64,000 nt of DNA from a virus. Position 1 is the first letter of the stretch; every line of letters begins with the position of its first letter. The stretch spans positions 64,001 to 128,000 of IMG/VR virus record IMGVR_UViG_3300030616_000017. One strand, written 5' to 3'. Shown here piece by piece: positions 9,183-52,955 of this stretch. The notes beneath the pieces were generated by a model. The model had not been told where the DNA came from and made no database searches. It saw only the letters and a program-made list of their open reading frames with translations. Position numbers and translations under genes: made by a program.

Positions 9183-11024
9183 CTACATCTCTCCCTTTAG
9201 TATGTGCTTCCACTCATCTTTGGATAAGCTTTCTCTCTTAAAAATAGATTCATCTAAATCTTTCTTGTTCTTGAGAGATTTATCTAATCTTGTATCAATC
9301 GTATTTTCAAAAATTAAATTATGAACAATCACAGGGTCTTCTTGGCCTATTCTATGAAACCTCTTAATAGATTGAGCGTACTCAACATAGGAAAAACTAC
9401 GAGAAAAATATACGACTCGTTTGCATTGAGTAATATTCACTGCTGTTTGCAGCACTTTAGAGGATGCAATTAAAAGATTACACTTAGGGTCGTGCTTGAA
9501 CTTCTCTAGTTGTTCGTTTCTCCACTCAATAGCTTCTCTCCCCTTCGGAGTATTTTGCCCATGCAGGACTATCGGATTATACTTTGCATACCTTTTTGCT
9601 AATTGTTCTATCGTACTAGGATGAAAATCAAAGATTGTTAATTTCTGTTTTTCATCCTTGATGTATGTAGTTACCAGCGAATCTAAAATGCTCAATTTAC
9701 CATGATGCTTATCAAACTTGAATTGCTGCACGAGAGACGCCAAAGTCGATGAGCGGACAGGATCGATTCTATCCTTTAATAAAGAGGCGTTTTCGTAAGC
9801 TAAAGAAATATAAGGGAACTTATTAAACAGCCTTTTAGGAATAAGTTGCCCGTCATCTTCTTCCTTCAGAACGCTTATAACATAATTGATCAGCTGTTCA
9901 TAAATCATAGATTGGGTAGGTGAAAGGGCTGCATACGTATCTTTTATATATAGATCGGGAAGATCTAACAGTTCATTAGAAGTAAATCTTGATACCCACG
10001 GAGCAAAAAGCTGTTCCCATTCCTCTCTTTTCTTCTCATAAATAAAGTTTATAGCGTAGGCGCTAAATCTATTTCCTGTATTGGCTATCTCATCTACCCA
10101 TTCATAATAATTATGAGGTACCAGACTAGAGTCTAAAAACTTCATCTGAGAATAGACCTCTGTAAAGTTATTAGGAGAAGGGGTTCCTGTCAATAAATAT
10201 CTATACTCAAAAAACTGTTTATGCAAATGCAGTGCTTTCGATTGCCTTGCTTTGTGGTTCTTTATGTTATGAGATTCATCCAATATAATAGCTCTATTAC
10301 TGCCCCAACTATCAAAGGGAATAGTTGCTTTTCTATAATTCTTACTTGTTTTCTTTCCGCTTCTTTTGTGATAATCATCGCTCAGCGTAAGAAAGTGACG
10401 ATATGTCATTATAATAACTTTAGGAGACAAAGGAAGAGGGTCACGCACCGTTTGTGGGCTGGAAATAATAATATCTTTATCCTTATTATCAATAAAAGTA
10501 GCAAATTGAAGTAACTCTCTCCTCCAGTTGTAGACGCCTTCAGGCGGGGTAACAACTAAAACCCTATCGCACTTTCCTTGCTCAAAATAATGATTCAAAG
10601 TAGAAATATTAATAAAAGTTTTTCCACTACCCATCCCCAAAAAGAAAGCATATCGATTGCTGTTGATACCTTTCTGTATGCAATCGAGTTGAAAACTCTC
10701 ATTGGGAGCTTTTCCTTTAATAGGCTCACTTTTTAAAAGCCGTTCGTTTAATTTATTACGTTTGAATTTGGTTTCTCTTTTTCCAAACTGCTGAGATGCT
10801 TCTTTTATTTTTTCTTCAGCCCCTTGCTCAAAGACCACGTCATCATAATCTTGAATATGAGGAAGGGCCTGCATAAGCTTGCGGGCGGAAGCCCCCCACT
10901 CTTTTGTTTCTCCATTATAAGTAAACTTATGGCGTTTAACTGTTTCCAACACGGCTGAAAATGCAGAGCCGGAAAAAGTCACAAAAGCTGTTTCTTCTCC
11001 TGTACTGTAAGAGATCTTAACCAT
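9183..11024 (-). CDS. SNF2-family helicase
   Basis: MGSGKT, DESH, LTGTP, RFHRIGQ. Confidence 0.92.
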   Translation of the reverse strand: MVKISYSTGEETAFVTFSGSAFSAVLETVKRHKFTYNGETKEWGASARKLMQALPHIQDYDDVVFEQGAEEKIKEASQQFGKRETKFKRNKLNERLLKSEPIKGKAPNESFQLDCIQKGINSNRYAFFLGMGSGKTFINISTLNHYFEQGKCDRVLVVTPPEGVYNWRRELLQFATFIDNKDKDIIISSPQTVRDPLPLSPKVIIMTYRHFLTLSDDYHKRSGKKTSKNYRKATIPFDSWGSNRAIILDESHNIKNHKARQSKALHLHKQFFEYRYLLTGTPSPNNFTEVYSQMKFLDSSLVPHNYYEWVDEIANTGNRFSAYAINFIYEKKREEWEQLFAPWVSRFTSNELLDLPDLYIKDTYAALSPTQSMIYEQLINYVISVLKEEDDGQLIPKRLFNKFPYISLAYENASLLKDRIDPVRSSTLASLVQQFKFDKHHGKLSILDSLVTTYIKDEKQKLTIFDFHPSTIEQLAKRYAKYNPIVLHGQNTPKGREAIEWRNEQLEKFKHDPKCNLLIASSKVLQTAVNITQCKRVVYFSRSFSYVEYAQSIKRFHRIGQEDPVIVHNLIFENTIDTRLDKSLKNKKDLDESIFKRESLSKDEWKHILKGEM

Positions 11025-26615: not shown

Positions 26616-27827
26616 ATGAAACTTTTCACAGAAACATGGAAACAAAAGATGCAGGATATCATTGTAGGTATTCAGTATCTTTTCGTAGCGGCAGGAGCAA
26701 CAATTCTTGTTCCTCTGTTAACAGGTATTCCTGTATCAGTATGCGTAGTGACAGCTGGTATAGGGACTCTTATTTTTCACTTCATTACGGGTAAGGGAGT
26801 ACCTGTTCTTCTTTCTTCATCGTTTGCATTTATTGCGCCGATTGTGGCTGTAAAAGAACTATATGGTTTGCCTTTTGCATACGGAGGAGTTATTGTAGCT
26901 GGTTTATTGTACTTACTGTTTGCAGCTCTTATCTATTTTGTTGGGTTAGAGTTTATTAAAAAACTATTTCCCACCCCTGTGACAGCAACGATGGTAATTC
27001 TAATCGGTTTAATTTTAGCTCCTGTTGCGATTTCAAGTGCTTCACAAAACTGGATTATTGCTTTGATTACTCTTGCTGCTGGAGCTGCTATTAAAGTTGT
27101 GTGGGATAATAAATTCATTGGCTCATTAGCTATAATTGGAGCAATGGCTGTAGGATATCTTGTTTCAATAGCAGCAGGAATTGTAGATGTAAGCGCTGTT
27201 CAAGCAGCTGCGCTTGTAGGTGTTCCTGAATTTCAATTACCTCAATTTAATGCAAACGCTATTATGATTATTGCTCCGATTGCTATTGTAACATTTCTAG
27301 AACATTTTGCAGATATTTCCGCAGTGAGTAAAGTAGTTGAAAAAGATTTTCTAAAAGATCCTGGTGTACATAAAACATTGATAGGCGATGGTATAGCAAC
27401 AGCAATTGCTGGTTGTTTAGGAGGTTGTCCTAATACCACGTATTCAGAAAATATAGGGGCATTAGAGATTACAGGAGTTAAGAGAGCTAGCGTACTAAGA
27501 ATAACAGCTATAGCTTTAATCGTGGTAGGGTTTCTTCCTAAGATTGCATACCTTATTCATTCTATTCCTGCTCCTGTTGTGGGAGGAATCAGCATTCTTC
27601 TTTTCGGTCTTATCTCAGCAAATGGAGTTAAAAACCTAGTACAAGAACAAATTGATCTCAAAGATCATAAGAACCTCTTTATTATAGCGTCCATGTTAAT
27701 TGTTGGTGCTGGAGGCTCAGTTATTGAAATAGGTTCAGTTACATTTTCCAGCTTAGCTCTTGCAGCTCTTGTAGGTATAGTGATGAACGTAGCGTTCAAT
27801 TGGAAAACTTTTTTCAAAAAAAGTTAA
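26616..27827 (+). CDS. NCS2 nucleobase permease (uracil/xanthine, UraA-like)
   Basis: SSFAF, EH..D, GDG, PNTTYSENIG signature; many TM segments. Confidence 0.93.
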   Translation: MKLFTETWKQKMQDIIVGIQYLFVAAGATILVPLLTGIPVSVCVVTAGIGTLIFHFITGKGVPVLLSSSFAFIAPIVAVKELYGLPFAYGGVIVAGLLYLLFAALIYFVGLEFIKKLFPTPVTATMVILIGLILAPVAISSASQNWIIALITLAAGAAIKVVWDNKFIGSLAIIGAMAVGYLVSIAAGIVDVSAVQAAALVGVPEFQLPQFNANAIMIIAPIAIVTFLEHFADISAVSKVVEKDFLKDPGVHKTLIGDGIATAIAGCLGGCPNTTYSENIGALEITGVKRASVLRITAIALIVVGFLPKIAYLIHSIPAPVVGGISILLFGLISANGVKNLVQEQIDLKDHKNLFIIASMLIVGAGGSVIEIGSVTFSSLALAALVGIVMNVAFNWKTFFKKS

Positions 27828-27835
27828 GAAAGTAG

Positions 27836-27866
27836 TTGAAAAATCTCTTTCGCTTGGTTATATTAT
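27836..27866 (+). promoter_or_regulatory. sigma70-like promoter (recurrent phage consensus)
   Basis: TTGAAA-17 nt-TATATT, just upstream of the mini-tmRNA. Confidence 0.7.
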
Positions 27867-27873
27867 GAGGAGA

Positions 27874-27978
27874 GGGGGAGAAAATGGATTCGACTGCTAC
27901 ACTGCTGAAGCGACGAAAGGCCCAAAGTAACGAAAGCTGAGGTGTAGCAGGACTCGGGTTCGATGCCCGACTCCTCCA
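27874..27978 (+). ncRNA. ssrA: miniature tmRNA (tRNA-like domain only)
   Basis: 5' GGGGGAG-AAAATGGATTCGAC; helix CTGCTACACT/GGTGTAGCAG; GAC-TCGGG TTCGATG CCCGA; acceptor with G3:U70 and A73. Confidence 0.85.
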
Positions 27979-27991
27979 AAATAAAAAATAT

Positions 27992-28081
27992 GGGCAAGTG
28001 GCGAAGCTGGTTGAAACGCATGAGACTTAAAATCTCATACCCAAGCGGTAAACATCGTGGGTTCGATCCCCACCTTGCCTA
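27992..28081 (+). tRNA. tRNA-Leu(TAA)
   Basis: Cloverleaf; TGAGA-CTTAAAA-TCTCA; long variable arm. Confidence 0.93.
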
Positions 28082-28085
28082 ATAT

Positions 28086-28159
28086 GGCACCTTAGCTCAG
28101 CTGGATAGAGCATGAGATTTCTAATCTCAGGGTCACAGGTTCGAATCCTGTAGGTGTCA
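28086..28159 (+). tRNA. tRNA-Arg(TCT)
   Basis: Cloverleaf; TGAGA-TTTCTAA-TCTCA. Confidence 0.95.
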
Positions 28160-28175
28160 TACTAATATAAAAAAT

Positions 28176-28248
28176 GGACCGTTAGCTCAGTCGGTAGAGC
28201 AACGCACTTTTAATGCGTAGGTCACAGGATCGTAGCCTGTACGGTTCA
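28176..28248 (+). tRNA. tRNA-Lys(TTT), atypical T-loop
   Basis: ACGCA-CTTTTAA-TGCGT; T-loop ATCGTAG. Confidence 0.9.
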
Positions 28249-28252
28249 CTAA

Positions 28253-28324
28253 GGTTTATTCGTATATTGGTTAGTACGCTGGATTGTCGATCCAGAAGGC
28301 GGGGTTCGATTCCCCGATAGACCG
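28253..28324 (+). tRNA. tRNA-Asp(GTC)
   Basis: CTGGA-TTGTCGA-TCCAG; G73. Confidence 0.92.
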
Positions 28325-28368
28325 TTTTTGTAAGAAATCTATATAGTTTTTTCTTACAAAATCTCTTT

Positions 28369-28442
28369 GCTCCCTTCGTCTAATCGGTTAGGATATCGCC
28401 CTTTCAAGGCGAAGATATCGGGTTCAAGTCCCGTAGGGAGTA
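28369..28442 (+). tRNA. tRNA-Glu(TTC)
   Basis: TCGCC-CTTTCAA-GGCGA. Confidence 0.93.
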
Positions 28443-28454
28443 AAACATTTTACT

Positions 28455-28486
28455 TTACTTTTTGGTAGAAAATGATTATATTATAT
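28455..28486 (+). promoter_or_regulatory. promoter for the ncRNA triplet/TerD/RNA ligase unit
   Basis: TTTACT..TTATATTATA consensus ending 2 nt before repeat 1. Confidence 0.65.
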
Positions 28487-28488
28487 AT

Positions 28489-28546
28489 GTAGGCAGAGGG
28501 AGTTCCTCTAAAAAACACGGTGAAAGTTTGAATACTCTCCGCCTAC
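28489..28546 (+). ncRNA. bulged-stem ncRNA, copy 1 (Y-RNA-like candidate)
   Basis: GTAGGC-AGA-GGGAGT-TCCT...ACTCTC-C-GCCTAC. Confidence 0.75.
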
Positions 28547-28561
28547 TTTATTGAAATTAAT

Positions 28562-28617
28562 ATGGCATAGAGGGTTCCTATACTATCAACTTTAAATTGA
28601 ATTCTACCCTCCGCCAT
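28562..28617 (+). ncRNA. bulged-stem ncRNA, copy 2
   Basis: ATGGC-ATA-GAGGGT-TCCT...ACCCTC-C-GCCAT. Confidence 0.75.
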
Positions 28618-28633
28618 TTTAATATGAGTAATT

Positions 28634-28723
28634 AAGGGCATAAGAAGTTCCTAATGTAAAGAATTTACAGGGCAACTCCTACGGGAGCAGGGCCCTGTGC
28701 CAACAAACTTACTTCTCGCCCTT
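28634..28723 (+). ncRNA. bulged-stem ncRNA, copy 3
   Basis: AAGGGC-ATA-AGAAGT-TCCT...ACTTCT-C-GCCCTT; internal C(UACG)G hairpin. Confidence 0.75.
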
Positions 28724-28750: not shown

Positions 28751-30694
28751 ATGATTTCCACTCTACGTCTTTTTAATGGTATTATTATTCCCAACAAAGA
28801 AGTTCCTGAAGATACTAATTCAGTAATATGGCCTCATGAAAAGTCTTACGAACAGCTTACTAAAGAAACTCTCAAGAAAGGATACATTGTTGATAAGGCT
28901 ATCTATTTTAATCTTACTCCTGAAGGCTTAAAAGACTTTAACAAGGCTATGAAAGAAAAGCTTACTTTTCATCGAGATTGGAATAATAGCTTTTATAAGT
29001 CTTGGAATAAACTGGAAACTCTTTCAGATTTTGAATTGCGTTTAGACCAGCTTTTTCATTACTTTACTACGTATGGAGCCGAAGCTCTTGGAATAAAAGA
29101 TTCTTTTGTTTACCTCCCTAAAGGCAATACTTTTATGCCCCCTGTAAGTGAAGATTTTTCTTTTCTTTATATTCGTGGATTTGAAAGAGAAGAAATTCAG
29201 GAAAAGATTGTAGCTATGGTTGGTTCTGGAATTGCTCTAAAAGAAGAAACCATTGAAGATCTTCTTACTATTGTTATGGAATTTTCAAAGAAGCACATTT
29301 TCGACATCTTCTCTGTTTGCAAGAACAAGGAAGTGAAGGTTCGATTAGCAGAGTTATATGATTTTATTCCTAAAAATGTAGGAGAATTTCTTAGATACGT
29401 TATTTACAAGAATACAGGGAAGTCTCTTGTTATTAAGAATAAAGCTACAATTGACGCTATAAAGATAGGGAGAGATAGAAAAACTCCTTCTTATTTCTAT
29501 GCGTATAGAGATGCTTATGGGCTTGAAAGTCTTGCTAAAAACTTTTATCGGTATAAGCCTCTTCTTCTTGCTTTTCGGTCTGCATTCCCTGAACTAAAGC
29601 CACTGATTAATCAAGTAAGAAAACTTGCTGTAAAGTTCCATGAACCTATGAAAGAAGATTTTCTTAATACTGTTACCAAAAAAATCAAACAGAATGCTGT
29701 TCTTAATCTCACCACTTTAGAACAAGAACTCTTTAAGGCAAACACCTTTAGAAAAGTACGGTTGCTATATGCTCTTCAGAATCTGGAAAGCCAAACTGAA
29801 GATAAAATCTATAATATTCGGAACGGTAAACAGTATGTAACGAAAGCAAGTATGCCTCGATTTAAAAAAGAGGATGTTGCTTTTTTAGCTGATAAGGTCT
29901 ATTCTCATATTGTTGAAGATATTAAACCAAATGTAGAAGGTAAGACAGTTTTGGTTCATCCAAGACTTGCATATGCTCTTCCTTCTTCAGAAAAGAATTT
30001 TATAGGAAACTACCCTGTCAAGAGTAAGGTAGAATTCAACAGTACAAGAGACCTGATTATTGGTGTTCACTGGAAAAATCAAAAAAATAGAGTAGATCTA
30101 GATCTTTCTCTTCTTAGTCTTGATGGAACCAAGTTTGGATGGAATGGTCGTTATAGGGATGAAGGAATTCTTTTTTCAGGCGATGTGACTGATGCTCCTG
30201 GAGCAGGAGCTTCTGAGTTTTATTATTTCAAAGGTGTTAAAGACGGGATGTATTCAGTAGTTTTGAATTATTACAATTCTTATGGGGTAGAAGAAGAATG
30301 CCCTTTTGATATAATTATTGGGGCTTTTGATGGACAAGATATTAATAGGAATTTTATGTTACGCCCTGAAAATATTGTTTTTCAAGCCTCCTCATCTATC
30401 GGCCCTGAACAGATTAATCTGGGAATGGTGGTTATAGAGGGAGACAAAAAAGTATTTAGTATGATAGAGGGAAAGAGAGCTCGTGCTTCAGTGTCTGCTA
30501 ACGATGAACTCAATGCTGTATATTTGAATGCACTTAAATCTGAAACTGAAAATATTATATTTCTAACAGATGTGCTTACTGATGCTGGAGCTGTAGTAGT
30601 AGAAGATCGAGAAGATTCAGTTATTGATTTTGATCTTACTCCTACCTATATTCAGAAAGATACCATTATGTCAATGTTTACAAAGGAGAGGTAA
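28751..30694 (+). CDS. large helical protein with C-terminal TerD-like domain (possible TROVE/Ro-like)
   Basis: RBS AAGGAG and ATG at 28751; W..DLDLS..W..FSGD..GASEF TerD-like motif. The TROVE fold is inference. Confidence 0.6.
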   Translation: MISTLRLFNGIIIPNKEVPEDTNSVIWPHEKSYEQLTKETLKKGYIVDKAIYFNLTPEGLKDFNKAMKEKLTFHRDWNNSFYKSWNKLETLSDFELRLDQLFHYFTTYGAEALGIKDSFVYLPKGNTFMPPVSEDFSFLYIRGFEREEIQEKIVAMVGSGIALKEETIEDLLTIVMEFSKKHIFDIFSVCKNKEVKVRLAELYDFIPKNVGEFLRYVIYKNTGKSLVIKNKATIDAIKIGRDRKTPSYFYAYRDAYGLESLAKNFYRYKPLLLAFRSAFPELKPLINQVRKLAVKFHEPMKEDFLNTVTKKIKQNAVLNLTTLEQELFKANTFRKVRLLYALQNLESQTEDKIYNIRNGKQYVTKASMPRFKKEDVAFLADKVYSHIVEDIKPNVEGKTVLVHPRLAYALPSSEKNFIGNYPVKSKVEFNSTRDLIIGVHWKNQKNRVDLDLSLLSLDGTKFGWNGRYRDEGILFSGDVTDAPGAGASEFYYFKGVKDGMYSVVLNYYNSYGVEEECPFDIIIGAFDGQDINRNFMLRPENIVFQASSSIGPEQINLGMVVIEGDKKVFSMIEGKRARASVSANDELNAVYLNALKSETENIIFLTDVLTDAGAVVVEDREDSVIDFDLTPTYIQKDTIMSMFTKER

Positions 30695-30695
30695 A

Positions 30696-31808
30696 ATGAG
30701 AGACCTTGCTTATATTGCTAAAATTGAAAAGCTTGAACCCATTAAAGATAAGGATAGAATTGAACTCGCCACAGTAGCTAATTGGGAAGTAATTGTAGGA
30801 AAAGGAGAATATAAGGTTGGAGACCTTGTGGTGTATGTTGAGTATGATACTGTTCTTCCTGTCAAGCCCGAATTCGAGTTTCTAAGAAAAAGATGTTATT
30901 CAAAACTTTATGACGGGTTTAGAATTCGTAATATGTCAATGGCTGGTGTATTTTCTCAAGGAATTGTGTTTCCTCTCTCTATTCTCCCAAAGAGTGTTAA
31001 GATTGAGGAGGGAAGAAATGTTGCTAAAGAACTAGAAATTGTTCGATATGATCCAGAAGAGATACGAGAAAATAGAATGATTCATAATTCCAAGCCTAAA
31101 AATCCTCTTATGAGATTTAAGTGGTTTAGAAAACTTCGGAATAAATATTTTGGTAAAACTTCCTCTTATCCTTCTACAGTAAAGAAATCTGATGAAACAA
31201 ATATTCAGAAGCTTTTCAACGCGTACAAAGAAAATTATAATGATGTGAAGTTTTATGCTACGGAAAAAGTAGAAGGACAAGCAGCAACCTATGTGCTTAA
31301 ACGAGGTCGCTTTCACGTTTACTCCCACAATAAGAGTGTGCGGAACGATGGAAAAAACAATTGGTCAGCAACTGCTAAACTGTATGACATTGAAAAGAAG
31401 CTGCGTCAGTATAAAAGAAAACACGGAGTAGAGCTTGCAATCCAAGGAGAAATTGCGGGGCCGGGAATTCAAAAGAATATCTATGGGTTTGATACATTTA
31501 GATTTTTCGTATATAAAATCACTAATGTGAAAACAGGTGAAGCGTACAACTTCGTGGATTTAGTTAATCTTATTGTAAAGTTAGATCTATTTCTTTGTCC
31601 TCTTGTTTATACATCTATATATCTTAATGCGTTTGAAACCGTACAGGAAATTCTTGAGCATAGTAATGGAGATAGTGTATTAAGAAAGGATAAGAAGATT
31701 CCAAGAGAAGGGCTTGTATGGAGAGCTGTAGAAGATCAAAATATAGGGTTTAAAGCTAAGAGTCCGGTATACCTTGCAGCTTGGGATAAAAAAGATAAAA
31801 CTGAATAA
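30696..31808 (+). CDS. ATP-dependent RNA ligase, DRB0094 family
   Basis: N-terminal DRIELATV..W..GDLVVY..D; TEKVEG, QGEIAGPGIQKN, REGLV, FKAKS. Confidence 0.9.
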   Translation: MRDLAYIAKIEKLEPIKDKDRIELATVANWEVIVGKGEYKVGDLVVYVEYDTVLPVKPEFEFLRKRCYSKLYDGFRIRNMSMAGVFSQGIVFPLSILPKSVKIEEGRNVAKELEIVRYDPEEIRENRMIHNSKPKNPLMRFKWFRKLRNKYFGKTSSYPSTVKKSDETNIQKLFNAYKENYNDVKFYATEKVEGQAATYVLKRGRFHVYSHNKSVRNDGKNNWSATAKLYDIEKKLRQYKRKHGVELAIQGEIAGPGIQKNIYGFDTFRFFVYKITNVKTGEAYNFVDLVNLIVKLDLFLCPLVYTSIYLNAFETVQEILEHSNGDSVLRKDKKIPREGLVWRAVEDQNIGFKAKSPVYLAAWDKKDKTE

Positions 31809-35703: not shown

Positions 35704-35794
35704 AGGAGATGATCTTCACGGGGGACTGTAAATCCCTTCTGCGTTAACAATTGTGAAGTGGCTGCAGGGTTGGGTTCGATTCCCTCATCTCCCA
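35704..35794 (+). tRNA. tRNA-Tyr(GTA) lacking a D-arm
   Basis: GGAGAT/ATCTCC acceptor; GGGGA-CTGTAAA-TCCCT; GGG-TTCGATT-CCC; only ~9 nt in the D region. Confidence 0.72.
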
Positions 35795-35905
35795 TTTTTT
35801 TTGAAAAAGTTTAATTTTTACTTGAATTTTAGAAAAAACTTCGTTATATTATAAATATGAATAAGATAATAAGAGGGAGTAAGGAATCGGTTAACTTAAA
35901 CATTT

Positions 35906-52685: not shown

Positions 52686-52955
52686 GCATACCTTCTATTG
52701 CTTGCCGATCCTAATTAGCTTAAAGGTAAAAGTGTCCTCACATCATCAAACAGAAAGTAGGGTTTTGAGAGCTCTCCCCACCGAGCTGTTTGTAGAGGAA
52801 GAGACGTGGGTTCAATTCCCGCGATTAGCCGTAGAATAGTAAAAGAAGAGTATGTAACCCTTTCTGAAAAGGAGGTTGCTTTTTGAAGTTTTTCTAATAA
52901 CATTCACTACTTGCGTTGCAAGAAAGCAAACCAAAAATGAAAGGAGTAAAAACAT
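52686..52955 (+). ncRNA. structured ncRNA containing a tRNA-like domain (52711-52828)
   Basis: D-arm, TCCTC/GAGGA stem and T-arm GTGGG-TTCAATT-CCCGC enclosed by a long stem; ACTAATA motif upstream, terminator downstream. Confidence 0.65.

What the first reader, a model, noticed from the sequence alone, without database searches (positions are those of the whole stretch)
27874..27978. 105-nt mini-tmRNA with no room for an mRNA-like domain
Seen: both tmRNA termini are intact (stemless D-loop ending GGAUUCGAC, helix 2, GAC linker, T-arm, G3:U70 and A73), but only ~37 nt lie inside helix 2. No frame there encodes an Ala-Ala-type degradation tag (examples: ATKGPK*, DERPKVTKAEV*). It has its own promoter and heads the tRNA cluster. 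Established: bacterial tmRNAs are several hundred nt; TLD-only forms are known from some protist mitochondria. Inference: it could rescue ribosomes without tagging, or sequester SmpB to block host trans-translation.
Basis: partly seen in the sequence, partly recalled or inferred. Interest (0 to 1): 0.88.

Follow-up and report, generated by a model that had tools for sequence, protein, structure and literature searches.

The report
Phage mini-tmRNA keeping restart-site loop
A marine-sediment phage carries a real 105-base miniature of the bacterial ribosome-rescue RNA (tmRNA) that has lost the destruction-tag message but kept a small loop derived from the restart site; one tag-less phage tmRNA was already known, and this one probably competes with the host's rescue system.

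Summary
Confirmed. Window 27874-27978 is a tmRNA tRNA-like domain (Rfam RF00023, 59.9 bits) in a 147-kb phage. It has G3:U70 and A73, sits behind a phage promoter motif, and has no pseudoknots or degradation tag. It is not an assembly deletion: contigs from other studies bridge it, and a syntenic distant phage has a 127-nt version. The kind is known: mycobacteriophage DS6A has an 80-nt TLD-only tmRNA, reported to inhibit host tmRNA. This scan has logged about 40 similar genes on other DNA; I found 140 in public contigs. A covarying stem closes a 15-nt loop (AAAG|GCC) where the sister phage and others carry a canonical resume site (AUAAUU|GCA, AUAACU|GCC). The window's own site has drifted from consensus. 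Its frame reads AQSNES*, but the stop is not conserved. Best reading: an alanine-charged, host-SmpB-dependent competitor that enters non-stop ribosomes without adding a degron. Rivals: passive SmpB sponge, non-degron micro-tagging, poly-Ala tailing. An earlier scan note on a 136-nt RNA suggested the kept restart site, which I tested here. New variant of a known kind.

The parts
27836..27864 (+). Sigma-70-type promoter (TTGAAA-17-TATATT), one copy of a motif repeated in this phage; predicted start a few nt before the RNA
   Evidence: 12 strict copies vs 0.5 in shuffles; activity not shown
27874..27978 (+). Mini-tmRNA gene, 105 nt (108 after host CCA addition)
   Evidence: RF00023 59.9 bits; only tmRNA hit above cut-off in the genome
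27874..27894 (+). 5' half of the tRNA-like domain: acceptor strand with G3, and stemless D-loop (SmpB-binding side)
27895..27949 (+). Helix 2a (27895-27903 with 27941-27949) and the arm it encloses
   Evidence: first three h2a pairs formed in 130-132 of 133 minis with many pair types (my filter asked for at least 4 of 6 pairs)
27904..27940 (+). K-turn-like junction (bulge 27904-27906, tandem G.A 27907-27908/27939-27940), stem A (27909-27911/27936-27938), GA/AAA internal loop, stem B (27914-27915/27931-27932)
   Evidence: stem A: 3 of 3 pairs change on both sides in window/L059/L261; same stem A-GA-CG...CG-AAA layout in L351 and L002; K-turn seen by eye in only 2-3 members, tentative
27916..27930 (+). 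15-nt terminal loop AAAG|GCC CAA AGU AA, homolog of the tmRNA resume site (purine at -4, A at -3, Ala codon at 27920)
   Evidence: positional homology with AUAAUU|GCA in L002 (score 10.3, p 0.007) and with 25 hand-aligned minis; the window's own site scores -0.2, below all 70 training sites
27920..27940 (+). Possible 6-codon frame AQSNES*; not a degron; stop not conserved in relatives
   Evidence: a relative's contig in run X5 lacks one base at 27926
27950..27978 (+). 3' half of the tRNA-like domain: G-GAC linker, T-arm with unusual loop UUCGAUG, acceptor strand with U70, A73
   Evidence: this T-loop occurs in 1 of 138 minis; the same seven letters stand in the sister phage L002, whose T-arm is one base shorter
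27991..28443 (+). tRNA cluster (Leu, Arg, Lys, Asp, Glu) starting 12 nt downstream, probably on the same transcript
   Evidence: co-transcription inferred

Best explanation
A functional, phage-encoded, tag-less tmRNA that works with host SmpB as a charged competitor of host tmRNA. Shown in sequence: intact tRNA-like domain with alanine identity, own promoter motif, no pseudoknot ring, no degron frame, a conserved loop homologous to the resume site, and no smpB in the phage. Inferred steps: (1) it is cut from the tRNA-cluster transcript and given CCA by host enzymes; (2) it is alanylated and binds SmpB and EF-Tu; (3) it enters non-stop ribosomes and takes the nascent chain, as a TLD fragment does in vitro; (4) the resume-like loop docks on SmpB, gripping it more tightly or holding the post-translocation state, but is too small to be threaded round the 30S head like a normal message; (5) the chain leaves with Ala, or a few non-degron residues, by drop-off and peptidyl-tRNA hydrolase or by a backup release route. 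Net effect: host ssrA tagging and proteolysis are out-competed during infection.
For: RF00023 match. G3:U70 and A73 are kept in all 7 minis found without requiring them, and in DS6A, while pair 4 varies, so charging appears to be under selection. Covarying stems. Syntenic 127-nt ortholog in a phage whose shared proteins are 38-52% identical. Resume-site scores are enriched in minis of 100 nt or more (8/35 at p<=0.05, against 2/89 of 60-87 nt). No smpB in this genome or in 41 mini-bearing viral records. Five MAGs with such minis also hold a full-length ssrA. Stops are not enriched in the resume frame (9/25 against 13 and 11 in the other frames). Literature: the DS6A-type RNA inhibits endogenous tmRNA (PMC11915505, PMC4131195); TLD plus SmpB does template-free peptidyl transfer, and SmpB protects the -5 position of the resume site (PMC3929946); the normal ring measures 81x97 to 96x128 A (PMC8363625).
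Against: No expression, charging, SmpB binding or ribosome data exist for this RNA. A DS6A-like molecule inhibits whether or not it can be charged, so ribosome entry is not needed for inhibition. The window's resume-like site has non-canonical G at -5 and -1 and is not significant on its own. The release route is unknown. The phage encodes Pth2, but only 3 of 41 mini-bearing records do, so this is no general partner.
Confidence: 0.5

Rival explanations
1. Passive SmpB sponge: the RNA binds host SmpB through the TLD and the resume-like loop and simply starves host tmRNA of its cofactor, without productive ribosome entry.
For: Titration was proposed for the DS6A-like molecule, which inhibits whether or not it is chargeable (PMC4131195). 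One SmpB bridges the TLD and the upstream resume element even in solution (PMC3929946). No phage smpB.
Against: G3:U70 and A73 are kept in every independently found mini, which a pure sponge would not need.
Confidence: 0.2
2. Micro-tagging: translation resumes on the loop at GCC 27920, adds AQSNES after the first Ala and ends at UGA 27938-27940, just before helix 2a. This is full rescue with a protease-resistant tag.
For: Ala codon with A at -4 and -3 in a loop where relatives have a canonical resume site. In-frame stops in 3 of the 5 closest members: window, L002 and L351. Loop geometry is conserved, about 6 nt upstream and 13 downstream.
Against: The stop is absent in L059 and L261 and not enriched overall. 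One-base indels after the Ala codon occur in L059, L351 and a relative's contig. Codons 2-3 behave like a small hairpin rather than coding sequence. A 15-nt closed loop cannot encircle the 30S head (inference).
Confidence: 0.13
3. Template-free poly-alanine tailing: successive Ala-mini-RNA/SmpB complexes add a run of alanines, so the product is still tagged for degradation.
For: TLD plus SmpB makes polyalanine in vitro without template (PMC3929946, PMC2481249). That poly-Ala tails act as degrons (RqcH pathway) is from my own knowledge.
Against: It does not explain the retained resume-like loop, and in vivo a similar RNA was inhibitory.
Confidence: 0.07
4. Decaying pseudogene or integration-site remnant of a captured ssrA.
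For: The resume site is drifted in this copy, and the syntenic relative L017 has no tmRNA at this place.
Against: All stems are intact with compensatory changes, the promoter motif is present, both ends are kept, and the short form persists in a distant sister phage and in 140 other sequences.
Confidence: 0.08
5. Assembly deletion of a full-length ssrA.
For: None found.
Against: Contigs from runs of other studies bridge the site: X3 27377-28222 with 0 differences; X4 27644-27964 with 0 differences; X5 27609-27978 with 26 substitutions and no gap. No joints were listed. The sequence is identical in three further assemblies.
Confidence: 0.01

Closest known systems
CDS-less ('TLD only') tmRNA of mycobacteriophage DS6A (JN698994; tmRNA Website tmID 11587; Mao et al. 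2009 as cited in PMC4131195 and PMC11915505)
   Same: Phage-encoded, standard one-piece orientation, intact acceptor with G3:U70 and A73, D-loop, helix 2a, T-arm; no pseudoknots, no tag frame; an A-rich stretch followed by a short CA-containing hairpin at the end of the arm.
   Different: DS6A is 80 nt, with the A-rich element directly on helix 2a. This RNA is 105 nt, with two extra stems and a 15-nt loop that aligns to canonical resume sites in relatives. It heads a tRNA cluster in a 147-kb phage.
Standard bacterial and phage tmRNA (ssrA, Rfam RF00023)
   Same: Whole tRNA-like domain and helix 2a; a resume-site homolog with an Ala first codon.
   Different: About 250 nt shorter; no pk1-pk4 ring, no H5, no degron-ending tag frame.
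Mitochondrial tmRNA (RF02544) and the ~65-nt CDS-less plastid tmRNAs of Mallomonadaceae (PMC11915505)
   Same: No tag reading frame; presumed SmpB partner.
   Different: Those are the organelle's only tmRNA, with a nucleus-encoded SmpB for the mitochondrial ones, and the mitochondrial ones are mostly permuted. This one is viral and acts beside a normal host ssrA.

Membership tests
Standard tmRNA (RF00023) | tRNA-like domain: 7-bp acceptor with G3:U70 and A73, stemless D-loop, T-arm, helix 2a | tested here: met
Standard tmRNA (RF00023) | Tag reading frame ending in a hydrophobic degron and a stop | tested here: not met
   all frames translated; stops not conserved in relatives
Standard tmRNA (RF00023) | Pseudoknot ring, about 300-400 nt | tested here: not met
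   37 nt inside helix 2a; model positions deleted
Standard tmRNA (RF00023) | Resume determinant (U-5, A-4, purine -3, G+1) | tested here: inconclusive
   A-4, A-3 and G+1 present but score -0.2, below all training sites; canonical at the same position in L002
CDS-less phage tmRNA (DS6A type) | One-piece TLD with both ends and no tag CDS, encoded by a phage | tested here: met
CDS-less phage tmRNA (DS6A type) | Little more than the TLD (about 80 nt, short hairpin on helix 2a) | tested here: not met
   105 nt with an additional conserved stem-loop module; hence filed as a variant
CDS-less phage tmRNA (DS6A type) | Inhibits endogenous tmRNA; binds SmpB | not testable with these tools
   reported only for the DS6A-like molecule
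Permuted two-piece tmRNA (RF04321) | 3' tRNA half upstream of the 5' half, with an intervening segment | tested here: not met
   normal order; RF04321 only 26.5 bits, cut-off 47
tRNA-Ala | D-stem and anticodon arm | tested here: not met
   not called by ARAGORN or RF00005
Kink-turn motif | Canonical stem, 3-nt bulge, tandem G.A/A.G, non-canonical stem, conserved in homologs | tested here: inconclusive
   fits by eye in the window and L261, degenerate in L059, absent in L002 and L351

The most novel reading that the evidence does not exclude
The 100-140-nt phage minis form a distinct class that performs trans-translation with a minimal 'resume loop' of 14-22 nt in place of the pseudoknot ring. 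The ribosome re-registers on the loop through SmpB and adds a few non-degron residues (AQSNES here), freeing ribosomes while sparing proteins. This would be a natural minimal tmRNA and would challenge the view that the message must be loaded round the 30S head.
Probability: 0.15. Interest if true: 0.78.

Novelty: new variant of a known kind. Interest (0 to 1): 0.45.

Why it matters
Tag-less phage tmRNAs are known from one published example, yet they are common and are missed by ARAGORN. This member and its relatives form a series from canonical resume site to drifted motif, which shows what selection keeps when the tag is lost: alanine identity, the SmpB-binding face and a resume-site loop of fixed size. 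That gives natural constructs for testing whether tmRNA can free ribosomes without tagging, whether the pseudoknot ring is needed to restart translation, and how phages steer host protein quality control. A confirmed RNA inhibitor of trans-translation would also be a useful probe of a pathway under study as an antibiotic target.

Tried and rejected
Two exact patterns built on this RNA's own D-loop found nothing in viral contigs; looser reverse patterns worked. blastn against annotated phages gave only short 3'-end matches. The neighbouring 665-aa protein found no IMG/VR relative. No RNA holder was listed among sequencing runs, so expression is untested. Mao et al. 2009 is not held and is cited second-hand. 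One search used a mis-indexed structure and is void; one search replaces it. Pth2 as a dedicated partner: rejected as a general rule (3/41). No ArfB/RF-1-domain gene or CCA-adding enzyme in the genome. Direct descent from the full-length 292-294-nt tmRNAs behind permease homologs (L024, L025, L027): not supported, as the ends differ and only the permease is shared. An 18-codon ORF from ATG 27884 in frame with AQSNES*: taken as a by-product of the D-loop consensus, with its ribosome-binding site buried in the acceptor stem. Hammerhead, Y-RNA or other Rfam families: no match. Several genome contigs 'minis' containing Ns (L280, L288) are scaffold gaps and were excluded. Host not identified. Caveats: the family survey patterns required the 3' acceptor motif, so G3:U70 counts are circular and only one search is independent; the loop regex and hand alignment were designed after seeing the sequences.

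Full report
Observation. The window is part of a 147,158-bp virus record, rated complete, with 18 tRNAs. At 27874-27978 Rfam RF00023 matches end to end at 59.9 bits against a cut-off of 47, with the whole mRNA-like part deleted from the model. ARAGORN does not call it. The predicted fold gives the acceptor stem, an open D-loop, helix 2a and the T-arm, z = -3.2. G3:U70 and A73 are read directly from the sequence. CCA is not encoded, as for every tRNA of this phage, and the phage has no CCA-adding enzyme. The upstream promoter-like site is one of 12 strict copies of a motif expected 0.5 times by chance. It is the only tmRNA in the genome, and there is no smpB.

Not an artefact. Contigs from runs of three other studies bridge the interior without a gap: X3 identical over 27377-28222, X4 identical over 27644-27964, and X5 a relative with 26 substitutions over 27609-27978. 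Three further assemblies are identical. The listed holders are marine-sediment and salt-marsh metagenomes.

Precedent. Hudson, Lau and Williams (PMC4131195) list mycobacteriophage DS6A as 'TLD only' and say a similar molecule strongly inhibits tmRNA whether or not it is chargeable, perhaps by titrating SmpB. Nawrocki et al. 2025 (PMC11915505) count 9 standard-form sequences without a CDS among 97,179 and repeat the DS6A inhibition result. I read the DS6A gene as 80 nt. Earlier notes of this scan record 43 such findings in at least 37 genomes; these are leads only. My own pattern scans gave 140 distinct minis of 59-140 nt, about two thirds of them 70-89 nt. Acceptor pairs 5-7, T-stem pairs 1-3 and helix 2a covary freely. 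None of 41 mini-bearing viral records has smpB, and five MAGs carrying minis also have a full-length ssrA.

What is inside the arm. The 37 nt are not filler. The closest relatives, L059 (107 nt), L261 (109 nt) and L351 (125 nt), share the layout stem A - GA - CG - AAAG GCC CAN(N) GY NN - CG - AAA - stem A'. In the three aligned, all three stem A pairs change on both sides and every cell pairs, while slid controls pair 25-42% (only three sequences). A model built from them found a 127-nt mini at the head of the tRNA region of a 146.6-kb phage from a JGI sediment sample (L002; RF00023 44.9 bits, E 1e-16). That phage shares the ribonucleotide reductase, the 643-aa neighbour, the AAA/SMC-like ATPase and Pth2 at 38-52% identity. 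Its RNA has the same layout and the same unusual letters UUCGAUG in the T-arm, and its loop reads AUAAUU|GCA with 11 nt downstream, exactly as in the window. Scored against 70 resume sites from full-length tmRNAs, that site gives 10.3 (p 0.007), above the training median, while the window's site gives -0.2, below every training site. Across minis of 100 nt or more, 8 of 35 have a significant resume site, against 2 of 89 short ones. A de novo motif search returns AAGGC(C/G)C with information 8.98 against 6.7-7.2 in shuffles. A stem-closed loop module is found in 23 of 28 non-redundant members against 8.7 expected (rule set after inspection). In 25 hand-aligned members the loop is 14-22 nt, with about 6 nt before and 13 after the first codon, a purine at -4 in 22 and C at +2 in 23. 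The series runs from AUAACU|GCC through GAAG|GCG to AAAG|GCC. I conclude that the window's loop is a drifted homolog of the resume site. The 80-nt DS6A class has a similar (U)AAAG|CC element directly on helix 2a; whether that is the same element or the normal helix 2a/2b internal loop I cannot tell.

No conserved tag. But L059 and L261 have no stop, and stops are no commoner in the resume frame (9/25) than in the other two (13 and 11). Single-base indels follow the Ala codon in relatives, including a contig lacking 27926. None of these peptides ends in a degron.

Mechanism. A86 (-4) is the main determinant of frame choice (PMC2481249) and stacks on SmpB Tyr55 after translocation, and the normal message is carried on a ring about 100 A across round the 30S beak (PMC8363625). 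SmpB bound to the TLD protects position -5 even off the ribosome, and TLD plus SmpB carries out template-free peptidyl transfer (PMC3929946). G3:U70 and A73 are kept in all seven minis found without asking for them, and in DS6A. I infer a charged RNA that loads host SmpB at two contacts, enters non-stop ribosomes and takes the chain, but gives no degron, so it out-competes host tagging (0.5). A 15-nt closed loop is too small to be loaded in the normal way, which argues against routine micro-tagging (0.13) without excluding it. A passive sponge (0.2) fits the DS6A data but not the kept alanine identity. Poly-Ala tailing (0.07), pseudogene (0.08) and artefact (0.01) follow. The phage encodes Pth2, which could recycle a peptidyl-mini-RNA, but this is not a general association. 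Every biochemical step is untested.

Verdict. It works like the DS6A TLD-only tmRNA and belongs with the CDS-less phage tmRNAs. It is not a member of the standard tagging tmRNAs. The retained resume loop makes it a variant that I did not find described in the papers searched. Interest is moderate: the kind is known and recurrent in this scan, but the syntenic pair with canonical and drifted restart sites makes a clean test set.

Noticed in passing
L024:2215-2508, L025:6084-6377, L027:6472-6763: Phage-like tRNA clusters with a 67-69% identical uracil permease carry compact full-length tmRNAs (292-294 nt; tags DEFDYALAA, DESNYALAA) directly or one gene behind the permease, beside a CCA-adding enzyme; the tag starts at position 65, leaving little room for pk1.
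   Followed up: partly
window 26616-27827: Phage-encoded xanthine/uracil permease (PF00860) next to a ribonucleotide reductase and a MazG-like gene; close homologs also lie in phage-like contigs (L017, L018).
   Followed up: partly
G000:C1:54225-54623 (-), outside the window: Peptidyl-tRNA hydrolase 2 (PF01981, E 9e-37); homologs also in L002 and L059, both of which carry close minis.
   Followed up: partly
window 28454-28700: Promoter followed by three similar stem-loop elements upstream of the 665-aa unknown protein and an RNA ligase (30624-31808); noted earlier as e1-5836515; no Rfam match at gathering score.
   Followed up: no
window 52758-52823: Isolated tRNA-like element (weak RF00023 hit, 17.7 bits), not called by ARAGORN; noted earlier as e1-5836528.
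   Followed up: no
L351 (G042:C1:205196-205319, -): Close mini in a 285-kb phage with an extra insertion of about 15 nt between the GAC linker and the T-arm; falls below the Rfam search.
   Followed up: partly
L017:9060-9360 and 9359-9480: Syntenic relative has about 300 nt of structured-looking non-coding DNA with no Rfam match where the window has the mini, then a tRNA-Leu-like gene with a roughly 35-nt insertion in the anticodon loop.
   Followed up: partly
L030, L032, L050, L052, L067: A 92-nt mini subclass whose arm is rich in GAC/GAU repeats that read as poly-Asp (DDDA/DDDE).
   Followed up: no
window 35720-35795: T-loop-like GGTTCGA with flanking stem at about 35773 between tRNA-Gly and tRNA-Gln, not called by ARAGORN or Rfam; possibly a further tRNA.
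   Followed up: no
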